64,000 nucleotides of DNA from Flectonema sp. DT1601 (GCA_964019425.1 OZ025799.1:620001-684000); one strand, 5' to 3'; numbered from the stretch's first letter, positions 7,280 through 62,130 are shown. The notes: generated by a model from the letters alone, not told the origin. A program made the numbers and translations.

Positions 7280-7282
<3 letters not shown>

Positions 7283-31107: not shown

Positions 31108-34100
31108 ATGGGAGACCGAGACCAAGAAAGGGATCCAATTATACCAGTTCCAGTTCATCCTTCATTTAAAAAAGAGTTAAAGAGAAGTGATACATGTGAT
31201 GATGACGACTTATTCACAGTTAATATCAACATTGAGGAATTAAGAGACAAGGGTGAGTCCATTTGTTATGACAAGTTCGATTCCCTTCCAGAGTTAAATC
31301 CACAACCAGATTATCAGATAAGTTCTGAGCAACAATTTATGACATTAGAACCTGGTAGACCTCCTATTAAACCGGGTCATCCTCAGGACTTTGCTCCAAA
31401 ACTTGAATTGGGTTCAGGAGTGAGACCTGTCTTATCTCAATATCCAAAACAGTCAATGGAAGTAAATATTTGGGTCAAAGACTGGCAAGATGCTGTTAAC
31501 CTTCCAGCTGTTGATTCAAAGCAACAGAGACTACGGAAATATCGATTACGACAAGTGCTTCAAAGGTTTATTAATGAAGTTGTTCCAACAGCTGTGAGCA
31601 TTATATCAGTTCAAACCGTTGCTGGGACTGGGACTGGTGGAGTCCAGACGGACATTCTCTCATCTCCCACAACTGATGACGATCAGTTTATTAGCGAACA
31701 ACTTCCTCATTCAGCAATTATATCGGATGTAATGTATTTCTTTTCTCATAGTAAGAGTAATATTGAGAAATGCGGATCTCCGGAAAGCGCTGAAAAACTA
31801 ACTCACCACATGCAAAAAGGAACCGATGCCGTCGTTCGTTGTGCAGAACCACAAGTAGGACAATACCCTTACATTACTTTATCATACCTTGGCTATACAG
31901 TTTTCATAAGACCTGTGACTTCAACTTTAAAACAACCGCAACACAATCCTGAAGATCCAATGGCCACTTACATATCAGCGAGATGCGCTGATAAGATGAA
32001 CATAAAAGGTCATTGGACACCTTTAAACCTTCATCGTAGAGATCAACAAAATACCGATGTCAGAAAGTTCACTTACGGACCAGCAGACGTTATTGTAAAG
32101 CGAAGTACTCGTGATGGGTTGTATTATTACGAAAGTGGGAATGACAGACTGATGCCGGCTATGAGTCCGAATACAGAGTTTCACCGACAGGGATACTTAT
32201 ATCAAAGACTTAGAAGGGAAGCAGTTATTAATAATAAAAATAGAAAGGGTCTGAGGACTCCAATATCGTCGGATGTGTTTAGTAATTTTGGATCAAATCG
32301 AAGTGAAGAACATGAAACGGAAGCAGCCCTCTGCACAGATGTAATTTTAACCGGACAAGTCCCACACTTGTTGGACGACTTACTGACAGAGTGTTGGAGC
32401 GCTCGGTTGTCGGACGCTCCTCCTCCGACTGTTGCAGACTATCTGTCAACGGGTCGTCCTTCCGGAGGTAAAACTCGTCTTTCTCGTTACTTTCACTCGA
32501 GGGGTGTGAATATGAGATTTTTGGGATTAGTACTTCAGCTCACTATCGAAAGGCTTCAAAAAATAATGCTTGCTTCCCTTCAGCCATTCGAATATAAAAA
32601 GATAGTCGATGAGGTATGTCTCTCTCTTCATTGTTATTGCTTGTGGGTTAGTAAAACCTTACCTCACCACGCAGGATAAGAATATCAACGTTCCTGCATC
32701 AGTGTTCGCAGCTCACACCAGAGAAATAATCTTGACTTTGAGAACTGAAATGGTCTCTCGGGTACTAAAGAACATTATTAAAGACTCAATGAGAAGAGGA
32801 GGTCATTCTCTGATTCAAATAGTTGAGTTTGTTTTCGGAGACACAGAAGACTCAGAAGAGCAGTTGGATCAGAAAATGCAATTCTGGTTCGAGTTGGTCG
32901 TCCCGAGATTGGAATCAAAATTTGGATCTGGACAACAGGCTCAACTGCAACCTTTCACAGTTGACGACACTGACAAAACAATTCTTTTCCGTAGAGTATC
33001 TGAACTGACTGGGTTGGTATTAGGTCGATCATCGAGTGGTTCTGCCTGCTGCCTCTTAAGAAATAAACAACGCTTTACATGCGACCTATCACTCTGTAAC
33101 GTCATTCCTATCCTTACCCTTCCTGTTATACCCCCAGTTGTATATAAAGAGGGAGAGAAGGCTAATTTAACAAGAAGGGCTTTGCAGTTAGTTAGGGCAG
33201 TCGTGGAATCCGATTTGAGCTCAACAGCTGATCCCAATAAAATATTTCTTCAGATAAAGAATCGTTGTGACACAGCTTCTGAGTACTTAGAAATGACACA
33301 AGGCAATGAAATAGATAACTCTGTCGTTACTTGGAAAGCTACTCGCCAAAGTATGACACTGTGTCACTCAGATCAGCTAAACGACTCTGGAAGAGCAAAA
33401 GATGACAGCGAATACCAAACAGTCGTATATCCAAGAAATCAAGGTGGTCATGTTCAATTCGTAGTCGATGGTTCCCACCCAGATTTTAACAAATTTGGGA
33501 GAGACCTCCGTCCATACCAAGAGGTACTAATGACTACAAGAAGATATGAAAATCAACGAGCTGTTATCGTTGGTGTTCGAAAAGGTTGGTTGTGGAGACA
33601 CACGTACGGTGATGTTGGAGCTTCTCCTTTTAACGCCGTTAATGAAATAGAACTTCAAGAGAGGTACGGACTTATTGTTGAAAGAGAGAATGTTAAACTC
33701 CCTGCTGCTGGTCTCATCAACACTGTCGTAGAACGTTCTGATCCTTCGCGATCTCATGTTACTACTCGACAGTCATATGTTGGTGAAAGCGACCCATATT
33801 TCATTGATTGGTTGCAAGGAAGTGGTGGGATCACTTCATTTGATGCGAGTGAGACATCACTATTCCCAACAGGTCTTTGTCATGGAGATCTCGTATTTTC
33901 TGAGATGTCAGGAATCCTAAGTATTATTATTGGTATCCATCCCAGCTCAAAGCAAGTCTGGTCTCTAAACACCAACAGCGGACTTACATTTGAAATGGTT
34001 TCCGGACAACGAAACAACTCCGACATCGTAACAAAGTATCAATTGGTTACGGTTGGAAAACGTAAACTAGCTCCGATTCATGATACTGTTTTGATTGAAT

Positions 34101-37100
34101 TTCGGGGTGACCAATTTGACATCTCACGAAAAACATGCGGAAAATTTGGTATTTACTACCGACAAACAGTTCTCCTATGCAACGGAGAGTACTCAGGAAC
34201 TTCAGCTACAGTCCTTGGAGTGAATAGAGGTGATATGTGTCTTCTTATAACTTGTGAAGGAGATGTAAATGACGATCAAGTTATTCACTGCGCTGGATGT
34301 ATCGATGCTCATGATTTAAGCTTGGAGTACGCTCCTCATGTCATCCGATACAATCCTGAGTACCTCATTAAGCCTCAGATTATTGACAGTTATCGAACAA
34401 TGGAATTTAAAACATGGCAGGGACACACTAAGAAGTTCATTATACAATCATCGATACTGTACGAGAAGTTTAGAGTCCTTCATGGACATAAAGTACGTGT
34501 GAAATCTGGTAGGTGGTTACATCGAATATTTATTGTAGTTGGAATCAGTGCTGACCCTGTCGATGAAGTAGCTTTGTGGGCGATTCTCTCTGGAGAATTG
34601 GAATACTATGGTGGTGCTGTCCCTTTAGTTAATTGTGATATTGAAATCATGGGTCTTCATATTGGTGATCTGACTTGTGATACTCAGCAACCAACAACTG
34701 TGATTTCAGAAATCAATACTAAAAAAAACATCAAAACAAAATGGGCAAAACTACCAACATTACGAAATCCAGTAAAACGATTGTCATTTGCTGGTCTGAT
34801 GCAGACTATTGATATGAATGGAATTCATCAACCAGTTGAACATTTAACTTTCTTTGGAGAAATAATAACATTTGAAGCATCTCATAATGTGTTGTGTGCT
34901 CTCGGAGTTTATTTCAATCAAAGAGTACTATATCAGCCTCCTCATTGTGGTAATAGTTTCTTTGCTGCAATCGTAGGTTTCTGGAGAGGTGAAATTTGGA
35001 TTCGACCAGACAACAAACTTTATGCGATTCCAATAACTGGCGATAATGAAATTGATATAAGAAAACAGATCACCGTAGTTGGAATCACATCCGTCAAACA
35101 AAAACCTCTCAAAGACCTGTTGATACCTGAGGTGGATTCAACAACGGGATTGTTAATAAATTATAAACAAATAGTCAGCAAATCTATTGATCGCAGCTAC
35201 TGTAATCCTCTTATAGACAAGTCTGTAATTAGTCATTGTACGTCTTCATTTGAGTTGGTTGGTCTTTTAACAGATTTAGACAGTCTTGGAATCTACGGAA
35301 ACGGATACCAAACTGGACAACGTCTTTGCATAGCAGGAGGATATCACAATACTGCGACCAGAACTAAAGCAGCTGATGGCTGTGGTATTGACGTGTACTA
35401 CAAGTGGTTTAATACAAGTGATATAGTAACTGTTTTGGGTGTCTTGGGTACTCAACTATTCGTTCAAAAAGATGATCAATTCGGTTCTACATCTCTCGCA
35501 ATACCAACTCAAGGAGTTCAGTCACTTCAGAGTATTGTTGGATGTGGTGATCTCACAACAGTTAAAAAGAATTGTTTTCTAACTGAAACAGATCGACTGG
35601 CCCAATTGCGAAGGATCAGAGAAGTCGAAGATTCGACTGACGGACTTCCTCGAGTAGCCTCCCCAAAGGCAGACCGCTCTGAAGCAATTACAGAAATGAG
35701 TGAAGACATGTTAAAACCTTACATCAGACTTGTTACTAGAGAAGAGTTAATTGAGATTGGGAAGAAGTTTGAAATATTTCCCTGCGCTAGACTCCGAGCT
35801 ATCTTAGAGGAAGTTCTTAAAACTCACGGACTCGGTCTTCGCTACTCGGAGTCGGAAGTCGATGCTTTTAAGAAACTCTCCGTTCTCACAAAAATATTTG
35901 ATGTTTGTCTTTCAATTCCAACCATTATGAATAGTCAGATGTTTAGCAAGAACTCCTCAAAGGCAGACATTGACCACTCTTATGAAGAGGTAGTTTCAAG
36001 GAGAGAGAATATGTTGCATTCTAGAAACACTGCATTTAAAGAAGATGTAGAAGAAGATCGTCTATATAGATTAAAAATAGACAAAGAGATTAGAGACGTT
36101 TCGATTATGAGAGCTGAAGAATCGAATGATCAGGGGAGACTACGGCAACTTCGAAAACCACGAAACTCATTGAGATCCATCGCTGGTCGACTTGAATGGA
36201 TTGCGGAAGAGCAAGAGATTCAACAAAAAAAACTTCAAAAACTCGCTGCTCGGAAATCTGCTGCAGAACTCAATCTTCCCTTCTCACGAAGTCTGCTCAC
36301 AGAAACTGACACCACTCCTCAGCCACCTAATCTTGTGGACTCGGTTCTTTATTACGACACAGACTTTCAGTATCTAAGAGCTAATGCACAAGTTATATAC
36401 TTCGACACCAGAGAAGTCAGCACATCGAAGTGGAAACTACCTGCGGGATCAAGAGTAACATACGGAAGAGGAGATTTATCAGGAGTAACCGCAGTGGTAC
36501 TGGGATCTCATGAGGGGAAGTTATGGATGTATGATGAGGATGACAGTGGTGGTGCCGCCACACCTTTATCGGCATTGACAGCTCAAGAAGCCTACGATGA
36601 CCATAAATTAACAATCACTGAGAGGAATGTGAAAGTACGTAACGCTGATCCATTTATTTACACTTTGTGGGATTCTCGTGTTGTAGAAATCGATATTTCA
36701 ATTCCTGCCTGCGATGTCTTTTCAGTCTATCACGGTGAGAGATATTCCTGTGGCACTGATCCCCCACTCCTGGGAGACGTTCCCCGATGGTGGACTGGAT
36801 CTCGTCCCTTTGTTATTACAATCATTGGTGTCTTTAAGAAACAACTTTATTATTCTTTCAACGACCAGTCTGGTGCCGTTGCTTTCACTGGCACCAACAT
36901 CACTGAGGCGTTCAGACTGGAGTTGCTGTACACTGCACCTGTTATTCAAAAGGGAAGAGATGAGCTTACTAGTAAGGATATCGTGAAATACATTGGGAAA
37001 TACACAGCTGATAATAGACTGCCAATGTTCACGGGAATGCTGGCAGCTTCAACTGCGCAAAGATTGGCTAGGAGGTTTGTTGGGAAAGTAGTGACGAAGA

Positions 37101-37702
37101 CAAAACCACCTGAACAACAAGTTCAAATAAACAGATCAGTGAAATGGATTCCAATGATGTTTGATATCAGTTCTGAAGTGTTTGAAAGACTTGATATTAA
37201 GTACCGTCACGGAGACAGAATTGTATTCCCAACTCAACAAGTTTGTGATCACCGAGCAGGAACAGTAATTGGAATTGCAAGACTTCAACTTTGGGTACAT
37301 ATTGATGGTGATGGTGGTGCTACTCCTTGGTCAGTACCAGATCTAAATGTTTGTTCGATTGTTGATAAGGCAACTGTCTTAGTGATGGTGAAAGAACGGT
37401 CTTCTCTCAAACAAAATCTACTCCGATATCCAACAACTGCCTGTAACATTGCGCTGTTTGATTCATCTTCCAAAGGGTCTGCGAAGTTCAACTTACTTCC
37501 GAATGACATAATTACATTCCTCTCTGGACAAACTAATCATACTGCAGTAGTAATTGGAGTCAGAAGTGGAATCCTTTGGAGACATGTAAATGGCGAGAAA
37601 GGAGCATCTCCTTTTCTCGGAGTTTCATCAGCAAGTGATTTAGAACAATTTGGTGTTGTTGTTATTGGAAAGAAAACTCATTCTGGAGACGTCTTTTTTT
37701 AA
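31108..37702 (+). CDS. About 2177-aa CLU-domain protein with about 10 copies of a KOW/SH3-like repeat; join(31108..32613,32675..37702)
   Basis: Two overlapping ORFs are joined in frame by a 61-nt GT-AG intron. CLU-central-like motifs FHSRGVNMRFLGLV and EMVSRVLKNII flank the intron. Repeated module FD.S....FG...G..V....G...A.V.GV..G.LW....G..GA.PF. Confidence 0.75.
32614..32674 (+). other. Spliceosomal intron, 61 nt, phase 0
   Basis: GAG|GTATGT donor and CACCACGCAG|GAT acceptor. Joins ORF 31108.. to ORF ..37702 in frame (..IVDE/DKNINV..). Confidence 0.85.
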
Positions 37703-50357: not shown

Positions 50358-51451
50358 GTGCCCCCATTCAATACTTCCTCCAGCTCCCTTTGGTCGCCCT
50401 GTTTACTCCCCGTATCTGTATGTCTTAAGGTGCCCCTCATCTTTCTGTTCCTCGTCGAGAACAGCAGATCTTCCATGCGGTCACTTGCAACATCTTCCAT
50501 GTTCCGTGCCATAGGAGTACGGGATCAGGACGGGTTTTTCTGCCTTGATACTCCCACATTCGCTGTGGATGGGTGCCTTCAGTTTAGTAACAGTGAGTGG
50601 TTCTCGGATGATGTTACGAACATCTCATTCAGCAACTCTGAACCCTCAGTCACGACCGTTTCGGATGATTTCTTATCCTCATCTCGTAAGGTTATAAAGG
50701 TCTGCCTGGTCTTCAATACGTCACATCTGTTGGTAATAATTTCCTCAGATATTGCGTTTCACTGTCATCTGTAGACTTATCAAGTCTCAGCAATGTTTCA
50801 GCTGTTGGAGACCATTTTTTATATTCTTGTCCATCCCTCACATCTGTTGACTTATCAAGTCTGAACAATATTTCAGCTGTTGGAAACTCTTTTCTTTCTT
50901 ATTGTTCATCCCTCACATCTGTTGACTTATCAAGTCTCAGCAATGTTTCAGTTGTTGGAAACAGCTTTCTTTGTGTTTCTGCATCCCTCACATCTGTTGA
51001 CTTATCAAGTCTGAAAGATGTTTCAGTTGTTGGCAACTCTTTTCTTAGAAATTGTTCATCCCTCACATCTCTGGACTTATCAAGTCTTAGCAATATTTCG
51101 GCTGTTGGAGACTATTTTTTAAGTGATTGTTCATCCCTCACATCTGTTGACTTATCAAGTCTGGAAAATGTTTCAGTTGTTGGAAACTCTTTTCTAAGAA
51201 ATTGTTCATCCCTCACATCTCTGGACTTATCAAGTCTTAGCAATGTTTCGGCTGTTGGGGACTATTTTCTAAGTGATTTTTCATCCCTCACATCTGTTGA
51301 CTTATCAAGTCTCAGCAATATTTCAGCTGTTGGAAACGGTTTTCTTTCTTATTGTTCATCCCTGGCAAACATTCTCAGCAAGTGCCGCATTTCGTGTGAC
51401 GCTGCCCCCGCCCTCTGGGATTGCTTTTCCGTTGGCTGTGCCGCAAGGTGA
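50358..51451 (+). pseudogene. BspA/TpLRR-type leucine-rich-repeat gene with a frameshift near 50700
   Basis: ORF 50358.. reads ..VTTVSDDFLSSSRKVIKV. A different frame, open 50702-51451 and absent from the ORF track, reads LPGLQYVTSVGNNFLRYCVSLSSVDLSSLSNVSAVGDHFLYSCPSLTSVDLSSL.. with a 25-aa period. Confidence 0.8.
50760..51363 (+). repeat. Tandem repeat, 75-bp unit, about 8 copies (coding LRR array)
   Basis: CATCCCT recurs at 50832, 50907, 50982, 51057, 51132, 51207, 51282 and 51357, an exact 75-bp period. Confidence 0.95.
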
Positions 51452-52528: not shown

Positions 52529-55500
52529 TCAAGATTTGCAAAACGCTGTACCACTTGCAATGCCCGCCCGAAAGGCCACACGAAGGATATCAGCAGCCAG
52601 CTTGTTGTAGCAAGGGGCTTCAAGAATCTTCTGACAGGGAATCCTCAGTTGAAATTCCAGAGCCTCTTCAGGACCCGTGAGTGCAGTAGTGTTATGTCCA
52701 CCCGAGGAATCGATATTTTGGTGCCATTCCAACACTCGAACAAGACGTGCCCGCGCTCCAATTTCATCATCGCAACCAAATTCAGATGCGTAAATCCGTT
52801 TTCTAACGTAATAGATGCTACCTTTAGCTTCCTGTGTGAGCATTGGGTTAAAGGACAATTCCGCTATCGGCAGGGCTGATCCCTGTCTTGAGGAGAATTT
52901 AAATGAAATGGGGGCAGCACCACCAACCGCCGATGTAGGCATCTTTTCCTTGGCTGACTGGACTATCTGAGGGGTGACAAAGTCAAATGTCTCGAATCTA
53001 AATCGCATGTCCGGTATTATTCCACCCCCGAGGATAGTTGTCGACACCCATGAAAGTTGTCTTTCCGCTATGGAAGTAACTATCTCTTCATTCCTGGTGC
53101 TGGTGACGGTCCGAATACCAATTTCAAAACTTCTTGAAACAACTGCAGACAGTTTACCGTACAGATCCACTGAGTCAACAGCTGAACCCTTTTGGGAATC
53201 ACGGAGCTTACTCATCATGTATGCTTCCGTTTTATTCTCAATTATCGCACCATCTGCGCCCATCTGGCATCTGGCAAGAAGTCCAAATCCCGCGTCTTCC
53301 AATTTCCTTTCAATCTCTCCCTGGATAACATCCAGCTCTTGATTACCAGCCCTAGCAATGTGCCGAAACGTCGAGCGCAGTCCTCTTTTCGCCTTCTTTT
53401 TCTTTCCTTTGACTGGGGCCTGTCCGCTCGATATTTCCATCTTTTTCATTACATATTCCTTCTCTTTAGGCGCAGCTTGGAATTTCCTCCGTTCCCACGC
53501 CTTCCGATTTCTTCCCATACTTTCCATCCGTTGGTGCAGCTCCGAGATTGACAGCGACTGACTAGTGTCTGGTAGAGAATCTGAAGCCGACATAATGAGA
53601 AATGTTCCGAAGGAAACGGTGCAATCGTAAAAGGCAAATGTCGACAGCGATGGAAGCTTCGGGATCTGTCTGGCTATGCACTCGGCTAGTGCGTTTCGGA
53701 CGGTAACATCATCGCAGCCGATGTTCTTAAAAATAATTTCCTTAATTGGTTGACAGCTTGACATCTCAATTCTCTGTCTATTATTTTCTTGCTCCGCTTT
53801 TAAACGGAGTTGTAGATCATCACCTTCTGAACCCCATGCAACAATTCCAACAGAACCTTCGAGGTGGTACCGAGAGGATCGAATTCTTGACCTACACGAC
53901 CAATTTAACTCTCTAATGTGTGAGGAAATCTCTCTTTGAACCAGCATAATGCTCCTTCGGTTTCCCGTCGCAACCATGATGAGCTTAGAACCCGTCTCTT
54001 CGAGTTCTACCACTGCTCCGCTCAATCTCGACAGTCGCTCTTCATGAAAAGCTAGAGCTGATCCCACACTGCCGCTTATTCGAGATGGGAGGCATAACTT
54101 GCACACTATCTCATCGTCATCCTGACTGCTCAGCAGTTGCTCTGGACAGCCGGTTGCAAGCAAGCAGTGCTGAGCAATCCTGCTATCGTGAGCAAGAAGG
54201 TTGATAGTTTCTACCGAACAGATTGATGAGACGGTTGACGGACTGAAAAGGTAGCGGTAATTGAATGAAGTTTCAATTGCTGCAGTTCCTATTAAAAAAG
54301 AGTACTTTTTAGCCGTTGAAGAACATGATGTCGACTTGAAAAACCGCAATACCGCGGCACCAGCCATGTCAGCAGGGTCTTCGCTGGGTATCAGGTTATA
54401 AATGTGACCTTTATCCTCAGCTAATAAGGAATTAAGGATTAACACGTGCAGCTCACCAGTACTCAGAATATGCCTCCCGCCATCATTTGTAATACCTGCA
54501 TCCTGTCTAATGACTCCGATAGTCCGTGCCCAGTGCTGGATGAATAGGAATACTGAGTGCGTCCACTGATGCTGAAGAAAGTAAGTTTTCAAACAAAGAG
54601 TTTTCAAAAAACTGCTGACATCTACGGTGAGGTCGAACCACTCCTCTCCCAATCCATCAGGCGGGATGATCGAAAATCGAATAATTGGTACGTTTGCTTT
54701 GAACACTTCAATCTTCTTCACTGCAATATTTCCTAAAAGGCGAGATACAATTTCCAGAGCCCATATCTGTTTGTCACGTAGGGTAGCCATAGATTCATGT
54801 CCAGATTTAAAGAGCATGCATCCAGAAGGTATGATAGCAACAACATCAATATCAGAATAAAGTGAACAAAGATCTTGGGCCACAGAACCAAAGACCTTCA
54901 ACTGAATATGTTGCTCCGAGTCGATCAACGAGTTGATTGTATCCTCTACCAGTGAGACGTATCGCATCTTTCTCTCGCTAATGGCCTTCGTTTCTTGCAT
55001 GTGTCTTCTTCCATAAGACAAAATAGCATCTCCAAGTTGCTTGTGTGAATTCTTTTTTCCCAATGTAGTATTTATTGCTCCACTTTGTCTCAAAACACCC
55101 AACAGAATTCTTCCGTGCAGAAGCCCAAAACTCTTTGCAAATCCATCACTCTGAGAGACCTGGTACCACCACCGAGCAGCTATTTCTTGCTCAGGTGGCG
55201 TTGTGTACATAACTGCAAAACGCTGTTTGGTAAACGTCTGTAGCTGGCAAACACGGCGTCTGATGACTTCTCTAGCTTTGAAAATATTTTTAATTAATGG
55301 ATGCCATGAAATAGCAGTAGAGAGGAGACACTCTGCTTCACTACGCAAGCCATAACTGGTCATAATTTGTCGCATTCCAGAACAGTAAACTCGATAGTCG
55401 TTCAAGGCTTCAGTTTCATAGCTAAGGCAACTTTTAGTTCCCTTTAGCGCTTCCAATAATTCATTTTCAGGTTCAGACAGAGAATTCTGCTGTGGCAGCT

Positions 55501-58500
55501 TACTACCTTCTGGACACAGTGCTCTGCAAACAAGTTGTTGTCCTATCCAGTTGGGGGCTCCAGTGTATTGAAAATCGTATGACTTGGCAGTGCGGTACAG
55601 AGTACCAAGGATTTTATTAGAAACATAGCCGTCGGTTGTCTTTTCCATAAAGTCAGGATGTCCATATTTCTTGATGCGTGTAAAAGCTTCTTCAGGAACA
55701 GAAGGCGGTATGCCGGTCTTTGGGTAGTCTACTGCAAACGATTGTGCTCGAGCAACTTCAATCGCGAGTGGGTTACGCGCACCGTCAACGAACTGGTCGG
55801 AAATCGCTTGGTGCATGTTTGATATCCTCCCTAAGCTGTCGTTGGAGTATACAGAATGGACAAAGTCAGCAATCTCCCAACAGTTTCTTATTTCTTTTAT
55901 CTTGTATTGCTCCGGGCGGGGTGCATTGGCACCGAGGGTCCCATACGGAAGAGGCGTGTCCTCTAACTCTTTGGGAAGAGTAATCTCCTGATCCCAGACA
56001 ACATAAAACTGATCTCCGTCTAAGTCTCCTCCGGAGCAAGACTCAGGAATATTATACAAAGTGTTGTTGTTGCATGGGAATATCACAACATTTTTGTACT
56101 CTCTGAGAGCCGGGCAGTCCACAGCAGTAACAACACGAACATCTCCCGGATGGAGACAAGGATTGCGCCAAACTATAACTTGTTCTTGTGAGAGAATCTC
56201 CTCTTTACCCGCTGGACTATCCTCTCCAAGTTGAACAAATATTTCACCATCTAGAAGCGTACCAGTCGGGTCAGGAATCCCCAGTAGATGACAGCCTTGC
56301 TTGATAGGTATTCTGGCTTTCTTAGTGAGATCTCTCGTACAAACTCGGTAGCTGACCCTACACAGATCCAGAACCAGAGGATCAGCAAATATGTCGCCAG
56401 ATGCTTCTACTCCCGACAAATATGCCTCGTACTCAGCTGCAAAGTCGGGAGGAAGATTTGGGAAAACCGCCGCCTTCATTTCGGTAGCGTCTTCGAATAT
56501 TGTACTTAAAGTATTCAGGCACGAGATGAGATTTGATTCAAGTGCTTTGTGGGGAAAGAACTGGTCTTGTTGTGAAGTGAGTAGAGAAATAATTTCGCGA
56601 TTCAGATGACAAGGTGACCACTTTGCGTGGCGAACAATGCAAAGCGTATTGTCGACATTCTCTTCCGGCATCTGAAACTTCTTCATTGAGGGTCGAATTG
56701 CAATTTTCTTTCCCGAAAGGTCAGCGTCTGTATCCGGTACGGTTACTAAAACACCCTTCACACCCCGCCATCGTATCTGAAAGGCAGACGGCGTAATATG
56801 TAATCCCAACATCGCTGCCACGGATTTGGCTGTTGTGATTGCGATCTTACCAGCCCCATCAGTTAACACTGAGCTGCCGTTACGGCAATGCACGTCCTTG
56901 ATCATAACAGTGCAGCTATCATCGATTTTAATTGTCGGAATATCCGAAGTCATATAAAGGGCAAGCCGCGACAAATACTTAGCAATGGACGCGCTGCCAC
57001 TCGGATCCACTATTTGACCTCTGAATCGAGCAAGCCTCTCGGCTATACTTTGACCTGAGCATGCACCAGGCAAGAACTCGATGTCTACGTACACAGCCTG
57101 CTGCTCCCGTAACTGGCTGGAACTCGCAGCGAAAAAAATATATTCCTTGCCAGCGAAACATTGGGTATCAGAAATTGACTGCTTGACGTAATTGAGTGTT
57201 ACGATGGAATTCAATCGTTGTCGCTGTTCATCCCTAAATACAACAGTGACAAATGGATGTATTCCAAAACGACGGTACAACCTGGAGTCGGCTACAGCAA
57301 GAGGTGTGAGGTACACACACTGTGTCGGGGTTAGCATTGCCCGCTTTATCAAATTATCGGTGTAGTCTAATTTGACTGCAAGGTTGGCTGCCTCGTAGGC
57401 TTTCTTGAACAAATCACATATGGGTGTCCAGTATTCCAGACTGGATTGCATTTCTGTGAGAGCCTGAATAATGCTTTCCTCACATTCCATCTCAGAGATT
57501 AGTAATCGAAGCTTCAGCTCAGCTGCCCTAGTGGAACAACCTAAACGTTGGCTGTGGAGAGCCTGAATCAGCCATTCTATTAAGTGATTACTGTGCGGTG
57601 GGTAAGTCTTGACAGCCTCAAACACTACTTTTACTCGAACATTGTACACAGGGACACCGAAGCTGCTACTTAATAAGACAGTCAGTTCTGAGGGAGGAGG
57701 GCAGTTGTGCATATGAAGGCAAAGGACAGATTGAGACACACCGTTATGTTTTACAGTGCAACGAGTAATATTGCCAAGCATATCCATTCCAAAGACTGGT
57801 GGGGTGCTGTTTAAGGGGAGAAGAATATTGCATTCTTTTTCAGATTCCCATGAAACAGCTATGAATGGATGAATGACCATGGGTGCCAATTCCATCCACA
57901 GATCGCTGATACCGATATGCATACCTGTCTTTATGAAAGACACCCAGCTATCATCTGCGAGTGTTTTTTCACTTGTAAAAACACCTAATTCACTCCATTC
58001 CCCTGTCAGTACAGTTACCTTGTATGATTTAAAAATGAAAGGCATGCCTTTCTGAAACTTCTTTCGGGTCTGCATAGTTGCCCAAATCGACCCTCCCGAA
58101 GATGTCTTAAACGACCAGTTGGAGAATAAATCTCTTTCGTCAGCATGTTGCTCTGTAAATGAACTAGTCAAAGATACGAGGTGACCTGTAGCGGAACCAG
58201 CAGGTAACACTGGGAAAGTATCAACAGGCATATCAGTTATTCGAGAAACAACTAAGTGATTGAGACCAGACTGGTCGAGGCTGTCTAACAATTCCGACTC
58301 AAAATCGATCTCTTGGAAATGTCGCTCAACGGGGTAAATGTACCAAAGCATTAGTGAAAGGTGCTTATCAGCGCAGAGTTCTGCGACCCTTGCACGAGGA
58401 GCAACTCGCCCGTTTTGAATATATTGAATAGTCTGCAGTACTTCAGGTGATGTTGGATGAGTAATAGCACGCACGCTGACGATGCTTTCGAGTTCCCTCT

Positions 58501-60514
58501 CCTTGGCATCCAAGCGCTGTTGGCGAAGCTGCTGGTAATGTGTGACGTAGCAGTGAATTTGACTGTTGGCCTGCCGAGCGCGCCCTCTTGACTGAATATG
58601 AGACCTCAGAGACTTTGGGGGCTGCAATCTTATCACGAAGTCACATTGTGGTACATCAATACCTTCTTCCAGGACATTAGTAGCAACGAGAAGTTTCGTT
58701 GCGCCGGTTCGAAATCGATTTACAGAAGCTTCCTGCTCGTCGAACCACTGCATTCCATCGAAGCCGCTGTGACCAACTACCATCTCAGGATTGTATCGTT
58801 CCGTAATTGCTTGAGACGAGCGCAGTCTTTTAACAGTTTCCCTTGCTACGAGTCGACTTTCTACTAAAATCAACACCCTACAATCGCCTTTGCACTCTGT
58901 CAGTGTTCGTTCAGCCTTCACTATCCGATCTGAAACGTGATTCTCGTACTTGCTTGGAACCTTCGTAGCCAAGACATCGATCTTGGCCCAACAAAACTGA
59001 GGAAAACTGGAAAATATATCCCCAGGATCTCCACTGCGATTGACCCGCGAAGCGATGCTTATGAGGGCACGGGACGCACAATCAATTCCGATTACTTGAA
59101 CCACATCAGTTAAGCTGCAAAGATCTAATATCGTGTCGACGTACTTTGTGATAGTTCTAAGGGTTTCGGGATCTAGACAGATGCGTTGGGGGGATTTGAG
59201 GCTTCCGATACGGCTCTTGAAAATCGCAATATTTCGGGGAAGTAGAAATTGTTCAACGTCTTGCTCAACATCAGGTATCTGTTCTGTGCTCTTTGTCGAC
59301 TTCCTCACTAAGGAATCACGATAGAGCTTTATGCTAGATAGCAGGCATTTCACAAACTGTATTTGTATTTCATTCATACTAATAACAAACCAAGATTCTT
59401 TAACTACATTCTTAGGGACTGAAGGATGCAACACAAAACCGCCAAAGTTGCGTTCCAGTTCTGCAATCTGCATTGCGGGAGAAGGCGGAGAACCCACTTT
59501 GTATGCCGATAAACCTCCCGATACAGGCGAAGCAGTGAGGCCAAGAATTAAAGGTTTATCTGCTGCAGGTAAAGAATGAACTTGTTTGAGCAAAAGGTGG
59601 AAAGGGTGATCATTACGAGCATGATGACATTCGTCGATGATTACACAACAGGTGTTGTTAATAGTTAGGTTTGACTTAGACAGCTTTTCAACCAGACACC
59701 CAGCGGTAGCAACGACAACGTCAAACTTTCCATTAATTATTCCATCAACCATTCTCTGTGATGCCGTCTCGCTACAAAGTAAGCAAATCCGCAATCCAGT
59801 TTCTCTCAGAATCACTTCACCCTGTTGAAAGACTAACGGTATCTTGTCTACTAAAAATAATCCCACCCTACTTGGGTTCATTTTTTTCATTTTGCACAAG
59901 GCCATGGCGCCAACAAGAGTCTTCCCCAACCCTGTAGGTAGGGACAAGATTAGTGAACGACTATGCATCAGCTGCGCAAATGCCTGAATTTGGTAATCAC
60001 GAGGAGGAGTAACAACAAGATCATCCCAACTGTAAGTCATCAAGTCCTGTTGTGATGCACGGACAACAGGAACACGATTTGAATGTTTTGGAGGTGCTGA
60101 TGACACTGCTACTGCCAGTGTGTCGACAGATCCGAAGAAGTTCATATCATTTCTGGTAGTTATGTTGTCCCATCTGGGAGTTTTTGATTTTACGGCAACA
60201 AGTTTCTCCTTCTCTTCGAGGAGTCGCATTCCAGCTACAGACAGCTTTCTCAATGACAGCGCAATGAATGAAACACTTTCAGGGCCGTATGGAGACATTG
60301 TTCCGATCTTTGTGGAACAATGTGGGCACAGTACTGGAGTCATCTTTCTTTTTGTATTCGCTTCGTCTATTATCAGACGTTTCTGTGACCGCAGCCCCCT
60401 CACTATCTCCTGACGAACGATGAGGTGCAATTCCTTCGCACTCTTTTCATAAAAACATATTTCTGAGATGTCGAGAACTTGCTTATAGCACGCGCCACAT
60501 GTAGCGCCCGACAT
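52529..60514 (-). CDS. RIG-I/Dicer-family helicase - RNA-dependent RNA polymerase - terminal nucleotidyltransferase fusion protein (2661 aa)
   Basis: Helicase motifs RDYQ, PTGLGKT (aa 193), DECH (aa 294), LGLTASP, ATNVLEEGID and QSRGRAR (aa 641). RdRP aa about 1056-1641 with TDGAG, SAFQIRW.G.KG, RNPCLHPGD, GGDLDGD (aa 1497) and AVDYPKTG. NTase FGS-x10-DID (aa 1875-1890) plus FDL (D1961). N-terminal CxxC..CxxC domain and a KH-like segment at aa about 2138-2200. Confidence 0.95.
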   Translation of the reverse strand: MSGATCGACYKQVLDISEICFYEKSAKELHLIVRQEIVRGLRSQKRLIIDEANTKRKMTPVLCPHCSTKIGTMSPYGPESVSFIALSLRKLSVAGMRLLEEKEKLVAVKSKTPRWDNITTRNDMNFFGSVDTLAVAVSSAPPKHSNRVPVVRASQQDLMTYSWDDLVVTPPRDYQIQAFAQLMHSRSLILSLPTGLGKTLVGAMALCKMKKMNPSRVGLFLVDKIPLVFQQGEVILRETGLRICLLCSETASQRMVDGIINGKFDVVVATAGCLVEKLSKSNLTINNTCCVIIDECHHARNDHPFHLLLKQVHSLPAADKPLILGLTASPVSGGLSAYKVGSPPSPAMQIAELERNFGGFVLHPSVPKNVVKESWFVISMNEIQIQFVKCLLSSIKLYRDSLVRKSTKSTEQIPDVEQDVEQFLLPRNIAIFKSRIGSLKSPQRICLDPETLRTITKYVDTILDLCSLTDVVQVIGIDCASRALISIASRVNRSGDPGDIFSSFPQFCWAKIDVLATKVPSKYENHVSDRIVKAERTLTECKGDCRVLILVESRLVARETVKRLRSSQAITERYNPEMVVGHSGFDGMQWFDEQEASVNRFRTGATKLLVATNVLEEGIDVPQCDFVIRLQPPKSLRSHIQSRGRARQANSQIHCYVTHYQQLRQQRLDAKERELESIVSVRAITHPTSPEVLQTIQYIQNGRVAPRARVAELCADKHLSLMLWYIYPVERHFQEIDFESELLDSLDQSGLNHLVVSRITDMPVDTFPVLPAGSATGHLVSLTSSFTEQHADERDLFSNWSFKTSSGGSIWATMQTRKKFQKGMPFIFKSYKVTVLTGEWSELGVFTSEKTLADDSWVSFIKTGMHIGISDLWMELAPMVIHPFIAVSWESEKECNILLPLNSTPPVFGMDMLGNITRCTVKHNGVSQSVLCLHMHNCPPPSELTVLLSSSFGVPVYNVRVKVVFEAVKTYPPHSNHLIEWLIQALHSQRLGCSTRAAELKLRLLISEMECEESIIQALTEMQSSLEYWTPICDLFKKAYEAANLAVKLDYTDNLIKRAMLTPTQCVYLTPLAVADSRLYRRFGIHPFVTVVFRDEQRQRLNSIVTLNYVKQSISDTQCFAGKEYIFFAASSSQLREQQAVYVDIEFLPGACSGQSIAERLARFRGQIVDPSGSASIAKYLSRLALYMTSDIPTIKIDDSCTVMIKDVHCRNGSSVLTDGAGKIAITTAKSVAAMLGLHITPSAFQIRWRGVKGVLVTVPDTDADLSGKKIAIRPSMKKFQMPEENVDNTLCIVRHAKWSPCHLNREIISLLTSQQDQFFPHKALESNLISCLNTLSTIFEDATEMKAAVFPNLPPDFAAEYEAYLSGVEASGDIFADPLVLDLCRVSYRVCTRDLTKKARIPIKQGCHLLGIPDPTGTLLDGEIFVQLGEDSPAGKEEILSQEQVIVWRNPCLHPGDVRVVTAVDCPALREYKNVVIFPCNNNTLYNIPESCSGGDLDGDQFYVVWDQEITLPKELEDTPLPYGTLGANAPRPEQYKIKEIRNCWEIADFVHSVYSNDSLGRISNMHQAISDQFVDGARNPLAIEVARAQSFAVDYPKTGIPPSVPEEAFTRIKKYGHPDFMEKTTDGYVSNKILGTLYRTAKSYDFQYTGAPNWIGQQLVCRALCPEGSKLPQQNSLSEPENELLEALKGTKSCLSYETEALNDYRVYCSGMRQIMTSYGLRSEAECLLSTAISWHPLIKNIFKAREVIRRRVCQLQTFTKQRFAVMYTTPPEQEIAARWWYQVSQSDGFAKSFGLLHGRILLGVLRQSGAINTTLGKKNSHKQLGDAILSYGRRHMQETKAISERKMRYVSLVEDTINSLIDSEQHIQLKVFGSVAQDLCSLYSDIDVVAIIPSGCMLFKSGHESMATLRDKQIWALEIVSRLLGNIAVKKIEVFKANVPIIRFSIIPPDGLGEEWFDLTVDVSSFLKTLCLKTYFLQHQWTHSVFLFIQHWARTIGVIRQDAGITNDGGRHILSTGELHVLILNSLLAEDKGHIYNLIPSEDPADMAGAAVLRFFKSTSCSSTAKKYSFLIGTAAIETSFNYRYLFSPSTVSSICSVETINLLAHDSRIAQHCLLATGCPEQLLSSQDDDEIVCKLCLPSRISGSVGSALAFHEERLSRLSGAVVELEETGSKLIMVATGNRRSIMLVQREISSHIRELNWSCRSRIRSSRYHLEGSVGIVAWGSEGDDLQLRLKAEQENNRQRIEMSSCQPIKEIIFKNIGCDDVTVRNALAECIARQIPKLPSLSTFAFYDCTVSFGTFLIMSASDSLPDTSQSLSISELHQRMESMGRNRKAWERRKFQAAPKEKEYVMKKMEISSGQAPVKGKKKKAKRGLRSTFRHIARAGNQELDVIQGEIERKLEDAGFGLLARCQMGADGAIIENKTEAYMMSKLRDSQKGSAVDSVDLYGKLSAVVSRSFEIGIRTVTSTRNEEIVTSIAERQLSWVSTTILGGGIIPDMRFRFETFDFVTPQIVQSAKEKMPTSAVGGAAPISFKFSSRQGSALPIAELSFNPMLTQEAKGSIYYVRKRIYASEFGCDDEIGARARLVRVLEWHQNIDSSGGHNTTALTGPEEALEFQLRIPCQKILEAPCYNKLAADILRVAFRAGIASGTAFCKS

Positions 60515-60612: not shown

Positions 60613-62130
60613 TTACAACGTATCAATTAAATACGGATCAGTGCAAGACTCTGCAGGGAATAAGCCTATACTCTTATACGTAGCTGGGTTACCCTGATGA
60701 TAGGAAGAGTTAACTCGAACAGCTGTAATATTCAACGGCAGGGCCGATATCTCACTGCGGGCAAATCGGATAATTCTTTTGTGCCCAACAGTGGTTCCGT
60801 TGAACACTGAAGCGGTCACAGATTCAAACCCGAAAGTCTTATTTCCTGAGCACGGGGAATATGAAGAGCAAGGTACTAACCAGGGAATTGCTCTCCACTC
60901 CAGGGAAACTTGTACCTCAACAGTGAAGTTGGTGATGCGCAACCCTTGTGAAATATCTTCGCGGAGCCAAATTCTATCACAAAGTGGAGGGTAATCAGGC
61001 ACAATAGGAATCTTAAATACGATCGATGGCTCGTCAGAACCATTTATTTCAGCAAATGGCTCGTGATAGCAAGTGACACGCCACTCTCCAAATTCTCTGT
61101 ATCGTGATAAATATTGATCAGGTATACTTCCAGTGTAGTTTGGGGTAATTCCAATGAGCAAATTTGCTCCAAGACCGACTGTTGAGTCGTGCTCGTTAGC
61201 GAGCTCTATAAGGGTTTTAATGGACTGGTTGGGAGCCCACCAGTTGTCAAAGTTACTGCTGAAAGGGACAAATCCCTCGTCAGGTGCCACAACACCTCCT
61301 GTAAAAACTCCTGGGCCGGTATAATGTGACGATGGGGCATTTAAATAATTTGGTTGTGAAACAGCTCCTTGTTCATTTCCGATTCCCCGCAACAGCTGCT
61401 CATTCCCAGGTCCTCTTAAGAGTACTGCTGAGGGGTTCAATGTTTTAATCTTTGATGTTATTTTACTGATGTCATCCTTTCCAAACCCAACGAAGGAATC
61501 TTTTTCGAACCAAATTTCAGTCCAAGGGTATTTCCCCCACAATTCAGTCAGTAGTGATTCCGTTACCTGAACATATTGCTCAAAAGATATTTTAGGGCAG
61601 AACTTTCCGTTATTAATGATAGTCTTATTCCACCCAAGCCAATAATTTTGGGACATTGAGAAATGCACACCGGGGGAAATGCCAGCTTTCTGAGAGAGAT
61701 TGACGAATTCAGCCACAACATCAATCGGACCTAAAGATGACTGACGGGCTGTGTAGTTGTAAGTTCCCCATTGTGGGATCTTCACATTCGTATCCCACAG
61801 TAGATGACCACAAGATCCAGAAACTGGGAGAATAGAATAGCCTGCGTTAATGTTAATAAGCGCTTGGTACCATCCATGTATATCAACACCCACTTTGAAA
61901 TCCTCTGCCGGTGGGGGTTCCCTTCCGTTACTGCATCCGTCACCTTTAGGTATCCAGGGACCTCCAGGCATCCCTATCCCGAAAAAAACGTAACCACCAA
62001 TTTCTTTATCCATCCACGTTAACTGTTCCCTAGAAGGTGTTTCTCCGTGTAATAAGTCGTGTGGTTGGTGATATGTCGGAATACCTATTCCGAAGTTAAC
62101 AACTCCCAATACAATACCGAGGCGTTGCAT
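60613..62130 (-). CDS. GH29 alpha-L-fucosidase homolog with altered active-site motifs, secreted
   Basis: PSREQLTW..EIGGYVFFG, LLWDT, DVVAEFV....K.GI.PG, LTELWGKY..EIWF, TVG.GANLLIGITP..TG.IP and LREDISQGLRI..F..TVGHKRI follow the GH29 layout. The first ATG (62130) starts a signal-like MQRLGIVLGVV; the track start at 62286 is a TTG. Confidence 0.8.
   Translation of the reverse strand: MQRLGIVLGVVNFGIGIPTYHQPHDLLHGETPSREQLTWMDKEIGGYVFFGIGMPGGPWIPKGDGCSNGREPPPAEDFKVGVDIHGWYQALININAGYSILPVSGSCGHLLWDTNVKIPQWGTYNYTARQSSLGPIDVVAEFVNLSQKAGISPGVHFSMSQNYWLGWNKTIINNGKFCPKISFEQYVQVTESLLTELWGKYPWTEIWFEKDSFVGFGKDDISKITSKIKTLNPSAVLLRGPGNEQLLRGIGNEQGAVSQPNYLNAPSSHYTGPGVFTGGVVAPDEGFVPFSSNFDNWWAPNQSIKTLIELANEHDSTVGLGANLLIGITPNYTGSIPDQYLSRYREFGEWRVTCYHEPFAEINGSDEPSIVFKIPIVPDYPPLCDRIWLREDISQGLRITNFTVEVQVSLEWRAIPWLVPCSSYSPCSGNKTFGFESVTASVFNGTTVGHKRIIRFARSEISALPLNITAVRVNSSYHQGNPATYKSIGLFPAESCTDPYLIDTL

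What the first reader, a model, noticed from the sequence alone, without database searches (positions are those of the whole stretch)
52529..60514. Single-chain RDRC: helicase + RdRP + TUTase/poly(A)-polymerase in one 2661-aa protein
Seen: one uninterrupted ORF carries a full Dicer/RIG-I-type DECH helicase (about 58530-60005), a full cellular RdRP with DLDGD (55592-57349; motif at 56012-56026) and a Cid1-like nucleotidyltransferase with GS and three Asp (54845-54889, 54632-54634). All catalytic motifs look intact, and no PAZ or RNase III motifs were seen, so it is not a Dicer. Established: these activities work together as separate subunits in S. pombe RDRC (Rdp1 + helicase Hrr1 + Cid12), Tetrahymena RDRCs (Rdr1 + Rdn1/2 uridylyltransferases) and C. 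elegans (RRF-1/EGO-1 + DRH-3, with RDE-3/MUT-2 tailing templates). Helicase-RdRP two-part fusions are known from Dictyostelium Rrp proteins. Inference: this is a self-contained sense-tail-copy machine for small-RNA amplification or antiviral/anti-transposon defence. I do not know of a described triple fusion, but cannot exclude one.
Basis: partly seen in the sequence, partly recalled or inferred. Interest (0 to 1): 0.95.

Follow-up and report, generated by a model that had tools for sequence, protein, structure and literature searches.

The report
Six-part RNA-silencing enzyme in one chain
One intact 2,661-residue gene joins a predicted RNA-end sensor, a helicase, an RNA-copying polymerase, an RNA-tailing domain and a predicted 5'-triphosphate-binding tunnel, a layout also found in animals, algae and protists, and it likely works as a self-contained amplifier of RNA silencing.

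Summary
The ORF (52529-60514, minus, 2661 aa) and every motif coordinate given are confirmed. The fusion is not unique. Helicase + RdRP + nucleotidyltransferase occur on one chain in 33 of 67 family proteins examined, including Hydra, a sponge, dinoflagellates, chrysophytes, an oomycete, a streptophyte alga, diplonemids and Dictyostelium. A 2023 preprint legend already notes amoebozoan RdRPs with a poly(A)-polymerase domain. The barrel keeps basic residues but not the metal-binding glutamates. I found no description of these three in ten literature searches; one likely review was unavailable. Best reading (0.6): a single-chain amplifier that senses RNA ends, tails templates, copies them and holds the 5'-ppp product. 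All activities are inferred. 'RDRC' is an analogy only, since Hrr1 is an SF1 helicase. The scan reached the same reading earlier on Naegleria DNA. Expression of this gene is untested.

The parts
52529..60514 (-). Whole gene, 2661 aa, single ORF (stop codon included)
60125..60514 (-). aa 1-130: Zn-binding (C6, C9, C63, C66) domain with the RIG-I-like-receptor C-terminal-domain fold, placed N-terminal to the helicase
   Evidence: model pLDDT 84; VIA Z 8.8-10.5 to nine RLR/DRH CTDs over residues 1-128/131 versus 7.1 or less for MsrB, Mis18, cereblon over 1-95/98; Cys in 25-27 of 28 rows; Pfam RIG-I_C-RD sub-threshold in 3 of 12 and 4 of 16 relatives
58535..60022 (-). aa 165-660: Dicer/RIG-I-type SF2 DExD/H helicase, motifs intact
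57365..58417 (-). aa 700-1050: poorly conserved linker, likely the PH-like accessory region of cellular RdRPs
   Evidence: no Pfam hit in the query; PH_met_RdRP at 8.3e-9, 1.6e-3 and 3.1e-3 in relatives L007, L002, L006; not folded
55589..57334 (-). aa 1061-1642: cellular RdRP catalytic domain, DLDGD at 56012-56026
54125..55057 (-). aa 1820-2130: terminal nucleotidyltransferase (Cid1/TUTase/GLD-2 type), palm plus helical domain; G1876 S1877 D1888 D1890 D1961
   Evidence: VIA Z 20.8 TUT1, 20.7 CutA, 20.5 GLD-2; family profile to Cid1 6e-10; three Asp kept in 58, 55 and 58 of 62
53906..54112 (-). aa 2135-2203: type-I KH-like domain without the GxxG loop
   Evidence: beta-alpha-alpha-beta-beta-alpha in the model; profile hits PCBP1 and hnRNP K KH domains at E about 0.005; no conserved GxxG in 54 rows
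52532..53869 (-). aa 2216-2661: triphosphate-tunnel (TTM) barrel, likely a non-catalytic 5'-triphosphate binder
   Evidence: VIA Z 18.2 (rmsd 6.0, 304 aligned) RESC1, 17.8 (rmsd 3.2, 234) RESC2, 15.6 (rmsd 4.0, 225) Cet1, 14.1 Pct1; profile hit to RESC1 E 0.0034, 0.22 with a smaller profile; conservation counts

Best explanation
This is an intact gene for a single-chain, six-domain cellular RNA-dependent RNA polymerase that likely amplifies RNA silencing on its own. Shown: domain content, intact catalytic motifs, conservation across many eukaryotic groups. Inferred steps: (1) the RLR-type CTD caps the end of a double-stranded or 5'-triphosphate RNA while the helicase clamps and moves along it, as in RIG-I and DRH-3; (2) the TENT domain adds a short non-templated 3' tail, probably U-rich, to the captured RNA, which the KH-like domain may help hold; (3) the RdRP starts on the tailed end and makes antisense RNA bearing a 5'-triphosphate; (4) the tunnel domain, lacking its metal ligands, grips that 5'-triphosphate as RESC2 does, protecting the product and passing it to Dicer or Argonaute. 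Likely targets are RNA viruses and transposon transcripts.
For: Fold matches for CTD, TENT and tunnel; independent sequence-profile hits to Cid1, KH and RESC1. DExH and D[LV]DGD motifs in 33 of 33 proteins holding both helicase lobes, RdRP and NTase; NTase triad in 55-58 of 62, so the tailing site is under selection. Tunnel: R2504 40 of 42, R/K2571 41, R/K2485 36, K/R2506 30, but acidic residue at the first motif-A position in only 10 of 42; RESC2 binds 5'-ppp with the same loss (PMC10201420). Functional precedents: Tetrahymena Rdr1 with Rdn1/Rdn2 and Paramecium Cid1/Cid2 (PMC4066745); RDE-3 tails recruit RdRP and are antiviral (PMC12265681); Dictyostelium helicase-RdRPs act in RNAi and DIRS-1 control. 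D. papillatum is reported to have one RdRP beside Dicers and Argonautes (PMC10161547).
Against: No activity measured for any full-length member. The Dictyostelium relative P0012 has a degenerate NTase triad and no tunnel domain, so tailing is not needed in every relative. Nucleotide specificity was not determined. The order of events is not shown by structure. Residue equivalence to Cet1/RESC2 rests on motif spacing, not on a superposition I could inspect. The C-terminal model has mean pLDDT 68 from 16 sequences. The query departs from family consensus at two sites (L105 where 26 of 28 have W; S2301 where 31 of 42 have R/H). Branchiostoma RdRPs appear intact yet without RNAi activity (PMC6396948). 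The host's own Dicer and Argonaute could not be looked up.
Confidence: 0.6

Rival explanations
1. Same machine, but the TENT domain tails the RdRP products (marking siRNAs for turnover or sorting, like C. elegans CDE-1 with EGO-1) rather than the templates.
For: CDE-1 uridylates EGO-1 products (PMC7988573). TENT, KH and the tunnel sit together downstream of the RdRP, so one short product could span 5'-ppp site and 3'-tailing site; trypanosome guide RNAs are 5'-ppp and 3'-U-tailed (PMC10201420).
Against: Template tailing is the documented link in ciliate RDRCs and RDE-3. No data here separate the two.
Confidence: 0.15
2. A role outside RNAi: an RNA surveillance or quality-control enzyme that converts aberrant RNA into tailed or double-stranded RNA for decay or signalling.
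For: Intact animal RdRPs without detectable RNAi role (PMC6396948); TENT fold also matches Trf4 (Z 17.3).
Against: The characterised helicase-RdRP relatives act in RNAi; end-sensor and RdRP together fit silencing best.
Confidence: 0.1
3. The tunnel domain is an active RNA triphosphatase that removes the 5'-triphosphate from products.
For: Cet1, Pct1 and viral capping-enzyme matches; E/D2620 kept in 36 of 42, D2502 in 37 of 42.
Against: The motif-A pair of glutamates is not conserved and position 2622 is Glu in 2 of 42; RESC proteins, the top matches, are inactive.
Confidence: 0.08
4. The nucleotidyltransferase makes a second messenger (OAS/cGAS-like) when the sensor binds foreign RNA.
For: OAS1 Z 15.5, CD-NTases up to 16.4, cGLR 13.2; it is fused to an RLR-type sensor.
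Against: TENTs score 4-5 Z units higher; the sequence profile hits Cid1, Tailor, CutA, TUT4 and no OAS or cGAS among 44 matches to E 10.
Confidence: 0.05
5. Assembly chimera or chance read-through of separate genes.
For: No RNA run could be examined; another assembly splits the ORF.
Against: Same domain order in single ORFs L002, L006, L007 and in named eukaryotes; the split in the other assembly falls inside the RdRP domain at a one-base shift.
Confidence: 0.02

Closest known systems
Dictyostelium RrpA/RrpB/RrpC helicase-RdRPs (PMC3661229, PMC2175303: passages read)
   Same: Dicer-type helicase N-terminal to a cellular RdRP on one chain; P0012 from D. discoideum aligns over CTD-like, helicase, RdRP, NTase and KH-like regions.
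   Different: Papers describe two domains only. P0012 has a degenerate NTase triad and lacks the tunnel domain; it falls outside the query's core clade in RdRP trees.
Amoebozoan RdRPs with PAP nucleotidyltransferase domain (bioRxiv 10.1101/2023.10.19.562841, Extended Data Fig. 10; legend read, figure not seen)
   Same: RdRPs annotated with ResIII/DEAD and Helicase_C; two also carry a poly(A)-polymerase NTase domain.
   Different: A domain annotation only; the legend does not mention CTD-like, KH or tunnel domains, wide distribution or mechanism.
RDRC complexes: S. pombe Rdp1-Hrr1-Cid12; Tetrahymena Rdr1-Rdn1/Rdn2; Paramecium Rdr-Cid
   Same: RdRP coupled to a Cid1-family tailing enzyme.
   Different: Separate subunits; Hrr1 is an SF1 ZNFX-1 orthologue; no end-sensor or tunnel domain described.
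RIG-I-like receptors and C. elegans DRH-1/DRH-3
   Same: CTD fold plus Dicer/RLR-type helicase; DRH-3 and RRF-1 are both needed for antiviral 22G RNAs (PMC3793227).
   Different: CTD precedes the helicase instead of following it; no CARDs; helicase profile scores ancestral Dicer (288 bits) and DCL1 (243) above LGP2 (212) and RIG-I (about 180).
Trypanosome RESC1/RESC2 and Cet1-type triphosphate tunnel enzymes (PMC10201420: passages and sections 18-19)
   Same: Tunnel barrel, basic lining, loss of metal-binding glutamates as in RESC.
   Different: RESC1/2 are stand-alone mitochondrial guide-RNA binders, reported to have no sequence homologues outside kinetoplastids; here the domain ends a cytosolic-type RdRP.

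Membership tests
Cellular RdRP (PF05183) | Full catalytic domain with DxDGD | tested here: met
   (1-581/582)
Dicer | PAZ and RNase III domains | tested here: not met
   no such Pfam family at E up to 1; the unannotated ends fold as other domains
RIG-I-like receptor | Zn-binding CTD fold | tested here: met
   Z 8.8-10.5 over 101-110 aligned residues, rmsd 2.9-3.5
RIG-I-like receptor | CTD C-terminal to the helicase | tested here: not met
   CTD is aa 1-130, helicase aa 165-660
RIG-I-like receptor | dsRNA-end binding and RNA-stimulated ATPase | not testable with these tools
   needs biochemistry
S. pombe RDRC | SF1 (Hrr1/ZNFX-1) helicase | tested here: not met
   SF2 Dicer/RLR type; Hrr1 is SF1
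S. pombe / ciliate RDRC | RdRP physically coupled to a Cid1-family nucleotidyltransferase | tested here: met
   same chain
Dictyostelium Rrp-type helicase-RdRP | Dicer-type helicase fused N-terminal to RdRP | tested here: met
Dictyostelium Rrp-type helicase-RdRP | Orthology with Rrp proteins | tested here: inconclusive
   P0012 is long-branched, outside the core clade, and changes position between trees; no true outgroup
Terminal nucleotidyltransferase (Cid1/TUTase/GLD-2) | Pol-beta palm with GS and three Asp plus helical central domain | tested here: met
Terminal nucleotidyltransferase (Cid1/TUTase/GLD-2) | Nucleotide specificity (U, A or mixed) | not testable with these tools
   U-, A- and C/U-adding enzymes tie within 1 Z unit
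OAS / cGAS-like synthases | Best fold and sequence match to OAS/CD-NTase | tested here: inconclusive
   match present but lower than TENTs
Active TTM RNA triphosphatase (Cet1) | Tunnel barrel fold | tested here: met
Active TTM RNA triphosphatase (Cet1) | Three metal-binding glutamates of motifs a and c | tested here: not met
   position assignment is by motif spacing that I recall, consistent with the aligned range
RESC2-like 5'-ppp binder | Four basic residues at the gamma-phosphate site | tested here: inconclusive
   four conserved basic positions but one-to-one mapping to RESC2 K311/R359/R402/R424 not obtained (one search aligns RESC1 only, E 0.22)
Type-I KH domain | GxxG RNA-binding loop | tested here: not met

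The most novel reading that the evidence does not exclude
This six-domain protein is an ancient, probably LECA-age form of the RNAi amplifier. Its CTD-helicase unit is a permuted relative and possible source of the animal RIG-I/MDA5 sensor module; its tunnel domain is the source of kinetoplastid RESC1/RESC2, the guide-RNA 5'-triphosphate binders of RNA editing; and many stand-alone RdRPs arose from it by domain loss.
Probability: 0.3. Interest if true: 0.9.

Novelty: new variant of a known kind. Interest (0 to 1): 0.72.

Why it matters
If right, sensing, tailing, copying and 5'-end capture in RNAi amplification can be studied in one polypeptide, which makes the long-open question of how RdRPs choose templates directly testable. 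Genetically tractable hosts carry it (Hydra, Diplonema, Dictyostelium in reduced form). It puts an RLR-type end sensor in unicellular eukaryotes and gives RESC1/RESC2 their first candidate relatives outside kinetoplastids. It also suggests that the two 'known' domains of Dictyostelium Rrp proteins are half of the picture.

Tried and rejected
No RNA holder was listed for the gene, so expression is open. No whole genome is held, so host Dicer/Argonaute and paralogues are unknown. Word-index search with aa 1815-2661 found nothing although HMMER found 48 clusters. ESM Atlas gave no usable hit for the tunnel region. No relative in IMG/VR (72 pattern matches, 0 confirmed); 2 loci among 71 matches in prokaryote genomes, RdRP part only. 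Foldseek on the CTD model had no match at E 0.001 or better, though RLR CTDs led the list. Yippee/Mis18, the best Pfam label for aa 5-73 (below cut-off), was rejected on fold coverage. Alignments A5 and A6 were misaligned at their ends and not folded. RdRP trees (midpoint root, no named plant, fungal or nematode references, 18 of 87 near-identical rows dropped) cannot order events. Whether the tunnel domain dimerises like Cet1 or RESC1/2 remains untested. Burroughs et al. 2014 (WIREs RNA), which I recall surveys RdRP fusions, was not held. Additional file 1 of PMC10161547, with its RNAi section, was too large to read; the seven readable supplements had no hit for the gene or RdRP. Either may bear on novelty.

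Full report
Observation. The ORF 52529-60514 (minus) is real: 2661 codons without a stop, no N in the window, chance about 10^-64. Pfam finds DEAD/ResIII, Helicase_C, a complete RdRP domain and an MTPAP-like nucleotidyltransferase palm above cut-off, and no PAZ or RNase III. A second public assembly carries the same protein in two pieces, P0002 and P0073, differing by one base in a GGG run inside the RdRP domain; relatives read in the window's frame.

Setting. The window is eukaryotic: kinesin, SAS-6, sorting nexin, WD40, ankyrin, DnaJ genes, 17 long ORFs on the plus strand and then this gene with an alpha-L-fucosidase-like gene 98 bases upstream on the minus strand. That layout suggests a euglenozoan, perhaps a diplonemid; this is inference, and in RdRP trees the query groups with two unnamed proteins (P0004, P0009; support 1.0 and 99.9) rather than with Diplonema or Sulcionema. 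GC3 is 0.43, within the 0.29-0.46 of neighbours.

The fusion is a family. The first search returned 23 proteins; 11 besides the query's own fragment carry an RdRP, among them Hydra vulgaris, Dinobryon, Diplonema papillatum DIPPA_03987 and Dictyostelium discoideum. A search for longer proteins added Spumella, Globisporangium and Mesotaenium, 3 of 5 hits with the full layout. HMMER with the C-terminal 847 aa found 48 clusters at 50% identity, one being the query's locus. Of the other 47, 31 hold an RdRP upstream; 14 start within 222 residues of the module and look like fragments, although four that begin inside the tunnel domain could be stand-alone; 2 match by the NTase only. Named members include a second Hydra paralogue, Oopsacas minuta, Convolutriloba, Prorocentrum, Effrenium and Sulcionema (20 proteins looked up, 7 with an organism name in their cluster). 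Of 79 metagenome loci, 7 hold the NTase behind the RdRP and 72 only an RdRP match. Among 67 family proteins, 33 have both helicase lobes, RdRP and NTase; 25 of these also match the N-terminal Zn domain and 32 at least part of the C-terminal domain; all 33 keep DExH and D[LV]DGD. These profiles were built from 12 family members, so hits to those 12 are circular, and a few rows are near-duplicates.

(a) aa 1-130 folds with pLDDT 84 and matches RIG-I-like-receptor CTDs best: LGP2 Z 10.5, MDA5 10.0, RIG-I 9.8, DRH-1 9.3, DRH-3 8.8 over the whole domain, against 7.1 or less for MsrB, Mis18 and cereblon over a shorter core. Foldseek E-values were weak (0.001 or worse). In RLRs this domain follows the helicase; here it precedes it. 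The helicase profile scores ancestral and plant Dicers above RLRs. (b) aa 2135-2203 has KH topology and weak profile hits to KH domains but no GxxG. (c) aa 2216-2661 is a triphosphate-tunnel barrel: RESC1 Z 18.2, RESC2 17.8, Cet1 15.6, Pct1 14.1, with a sequence-profile hit to RESC1 at E 0.0034 (0.22 with a 10-sequence profile). In 42 proteins with a near-complete barrel, basic residues are kept (R2504 40, R/K2571 41, R/K2485 36, K/R2506 30) while the motif-A acidic pair is not. Eighteen of 60 proteins had under 330 residues of it and were left out of that count; Hydra isoforms of both lengths suggest an intron or gene-calling break. RESC2 binds 5'-triphosphate RNA without catalysis after the same loss (PMC10201420).

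The NTase is a terminal transferase by fold (TUT1 20.8, CutA 20.7, GLD-2 20.5, TUT7 20.4; canonical PAP 17.5; OAS1 15.5) and by profile (Cid1 6e-10). Its three aspartates are kept in 58, 55 and 58 of 62. The Dictyostelium protein is an exception with Asn-x-Asn and no tunnel domain.

Mechanism. I commit to a single-chain amplifier: end sensing and clamping by CTD plus helicase, 3' tailing of the captured RNA, copying by the RdRP, and capture of the product's 5'-triphosphate by a pseudo-phosphatase (0.6). Domain identity and conservation are shown; each activity and their order are inferred from RIG-I/DRH-3, Tetrahymena Rdn1/2 and Paramecium Cid1/2 (PMC4066745), RDE-3 (PMC12265681) and RESC2. 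Rivals: product tailing (0.15), non-RNAi surveillance (0.10), active triphosphatase (0.08), second-messenger synthesis (0.05), artefact (0.02).

Known versus new. Helicase-RdRP fusions are described for Dictyostelium (PMC3661229, PMC2175303; passages). The legend of Extended Data Fig. 10 in bioRxiv 10.1101/2023.10.19.562841 notes amoebozoan RdRPs with helicase domains and two with a poly(A)-polymerase NTase domain (figure not seen), so the triple combination is not wholly unreported. Ten searches showed no description of the CTD, KH or tunnel domains in such proteins; I read passages of 14 papers, none in full, and saw the rest as listings. PMC6396948, PMC10080066 and PMC10161547 count RdRPs in animals, oomycetes and Diplonema without noting this layout in the passages read. 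It works like an RDRC but is not one: Hrr1 is an SF1 helicase (PMC9276528). It is neither a Dicer nor an RLR. Earlier notes of this scan reached the same reading on Naegleria DNA and on a fungus-like parasite; I had written my reading before seeing them, and they are not independent proof.

Evolution. In two RdRP trees a core clade holding the query, diplonemids, dinoflagellates, chrysophytes and animals is separated from the rest with support 0.997 and 100; other full-layout members lie among RdRP-only loci. This fits an old origin with repeated loss, but horizontal transfer is not excluded, the root is a midpoint and some RdRP-only loci may be cut by introns or contig ends. Links to RLR and RESC origins rest on fold and weak profile similarity and were not tested by tree.

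Verdict. Real, intact, widespread, richer than reported, partly noted in print, functionally uncharacterised. New variant of a known kind; interest 0.72.

Noticed in passing
window 50690-51451 (+): Eight 75-bp repeats (50766-51363) encode BspA-type leucine-rich repeats (Pfam LRR_5 3.8e-22) in a 253-aa frame without Met: an exon, pseudogene or mobile fragment at the strand switch.
   Followed up: partly
window 60613-62130 (-): Alpha-L-fucosidase-like gene (4.6e-8) ending 98 bases before the RdRP start codon, same strand; probably an unrelated co-transcribed neighbour.
   Followed up: partly
L080:6029-9197, L081:6029-9197: Two contigs of a Deltaproteobacteria MAG carry a cellular-type RdRP split over three consecutive frames; bacterial homologue or contaminant not decided.
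   Followed up: partly
L002:1543-9927, L007:3-7910: Weak hits to DUF7752 in the helical part of the NTase and to PH_met_RdRP in the linker. I recall both from nematode RdRPs; if so, RRF-1/EGO-1 may keep a decayed NTase-like tail.
   Followed up: no
P0010, P0068 (Dinobryon, Spumella): Chrysophyte members add N-terminal double-stranded-RNA-binding motifs before the CTD-like domain.
   Followed up: partly
P0085, P0091, P0100, P0117: Proteins that begin inside the tunnel domain; fragments, or stand-alone RESC-like proteins.
   Followed up: no
window 31108-37702 (+): A 523-aa ORF with a weak eIF3_p135/CLU hit overlaps by about 70 bases a 1697-aa ORF with no Pfam match; possibly one gene with an intron or frameshift.
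   Followed up: no
window 7280-10084 (+): 934-aa protein with a signal-peptide-like start and no Pfam match.
   Followed up: no
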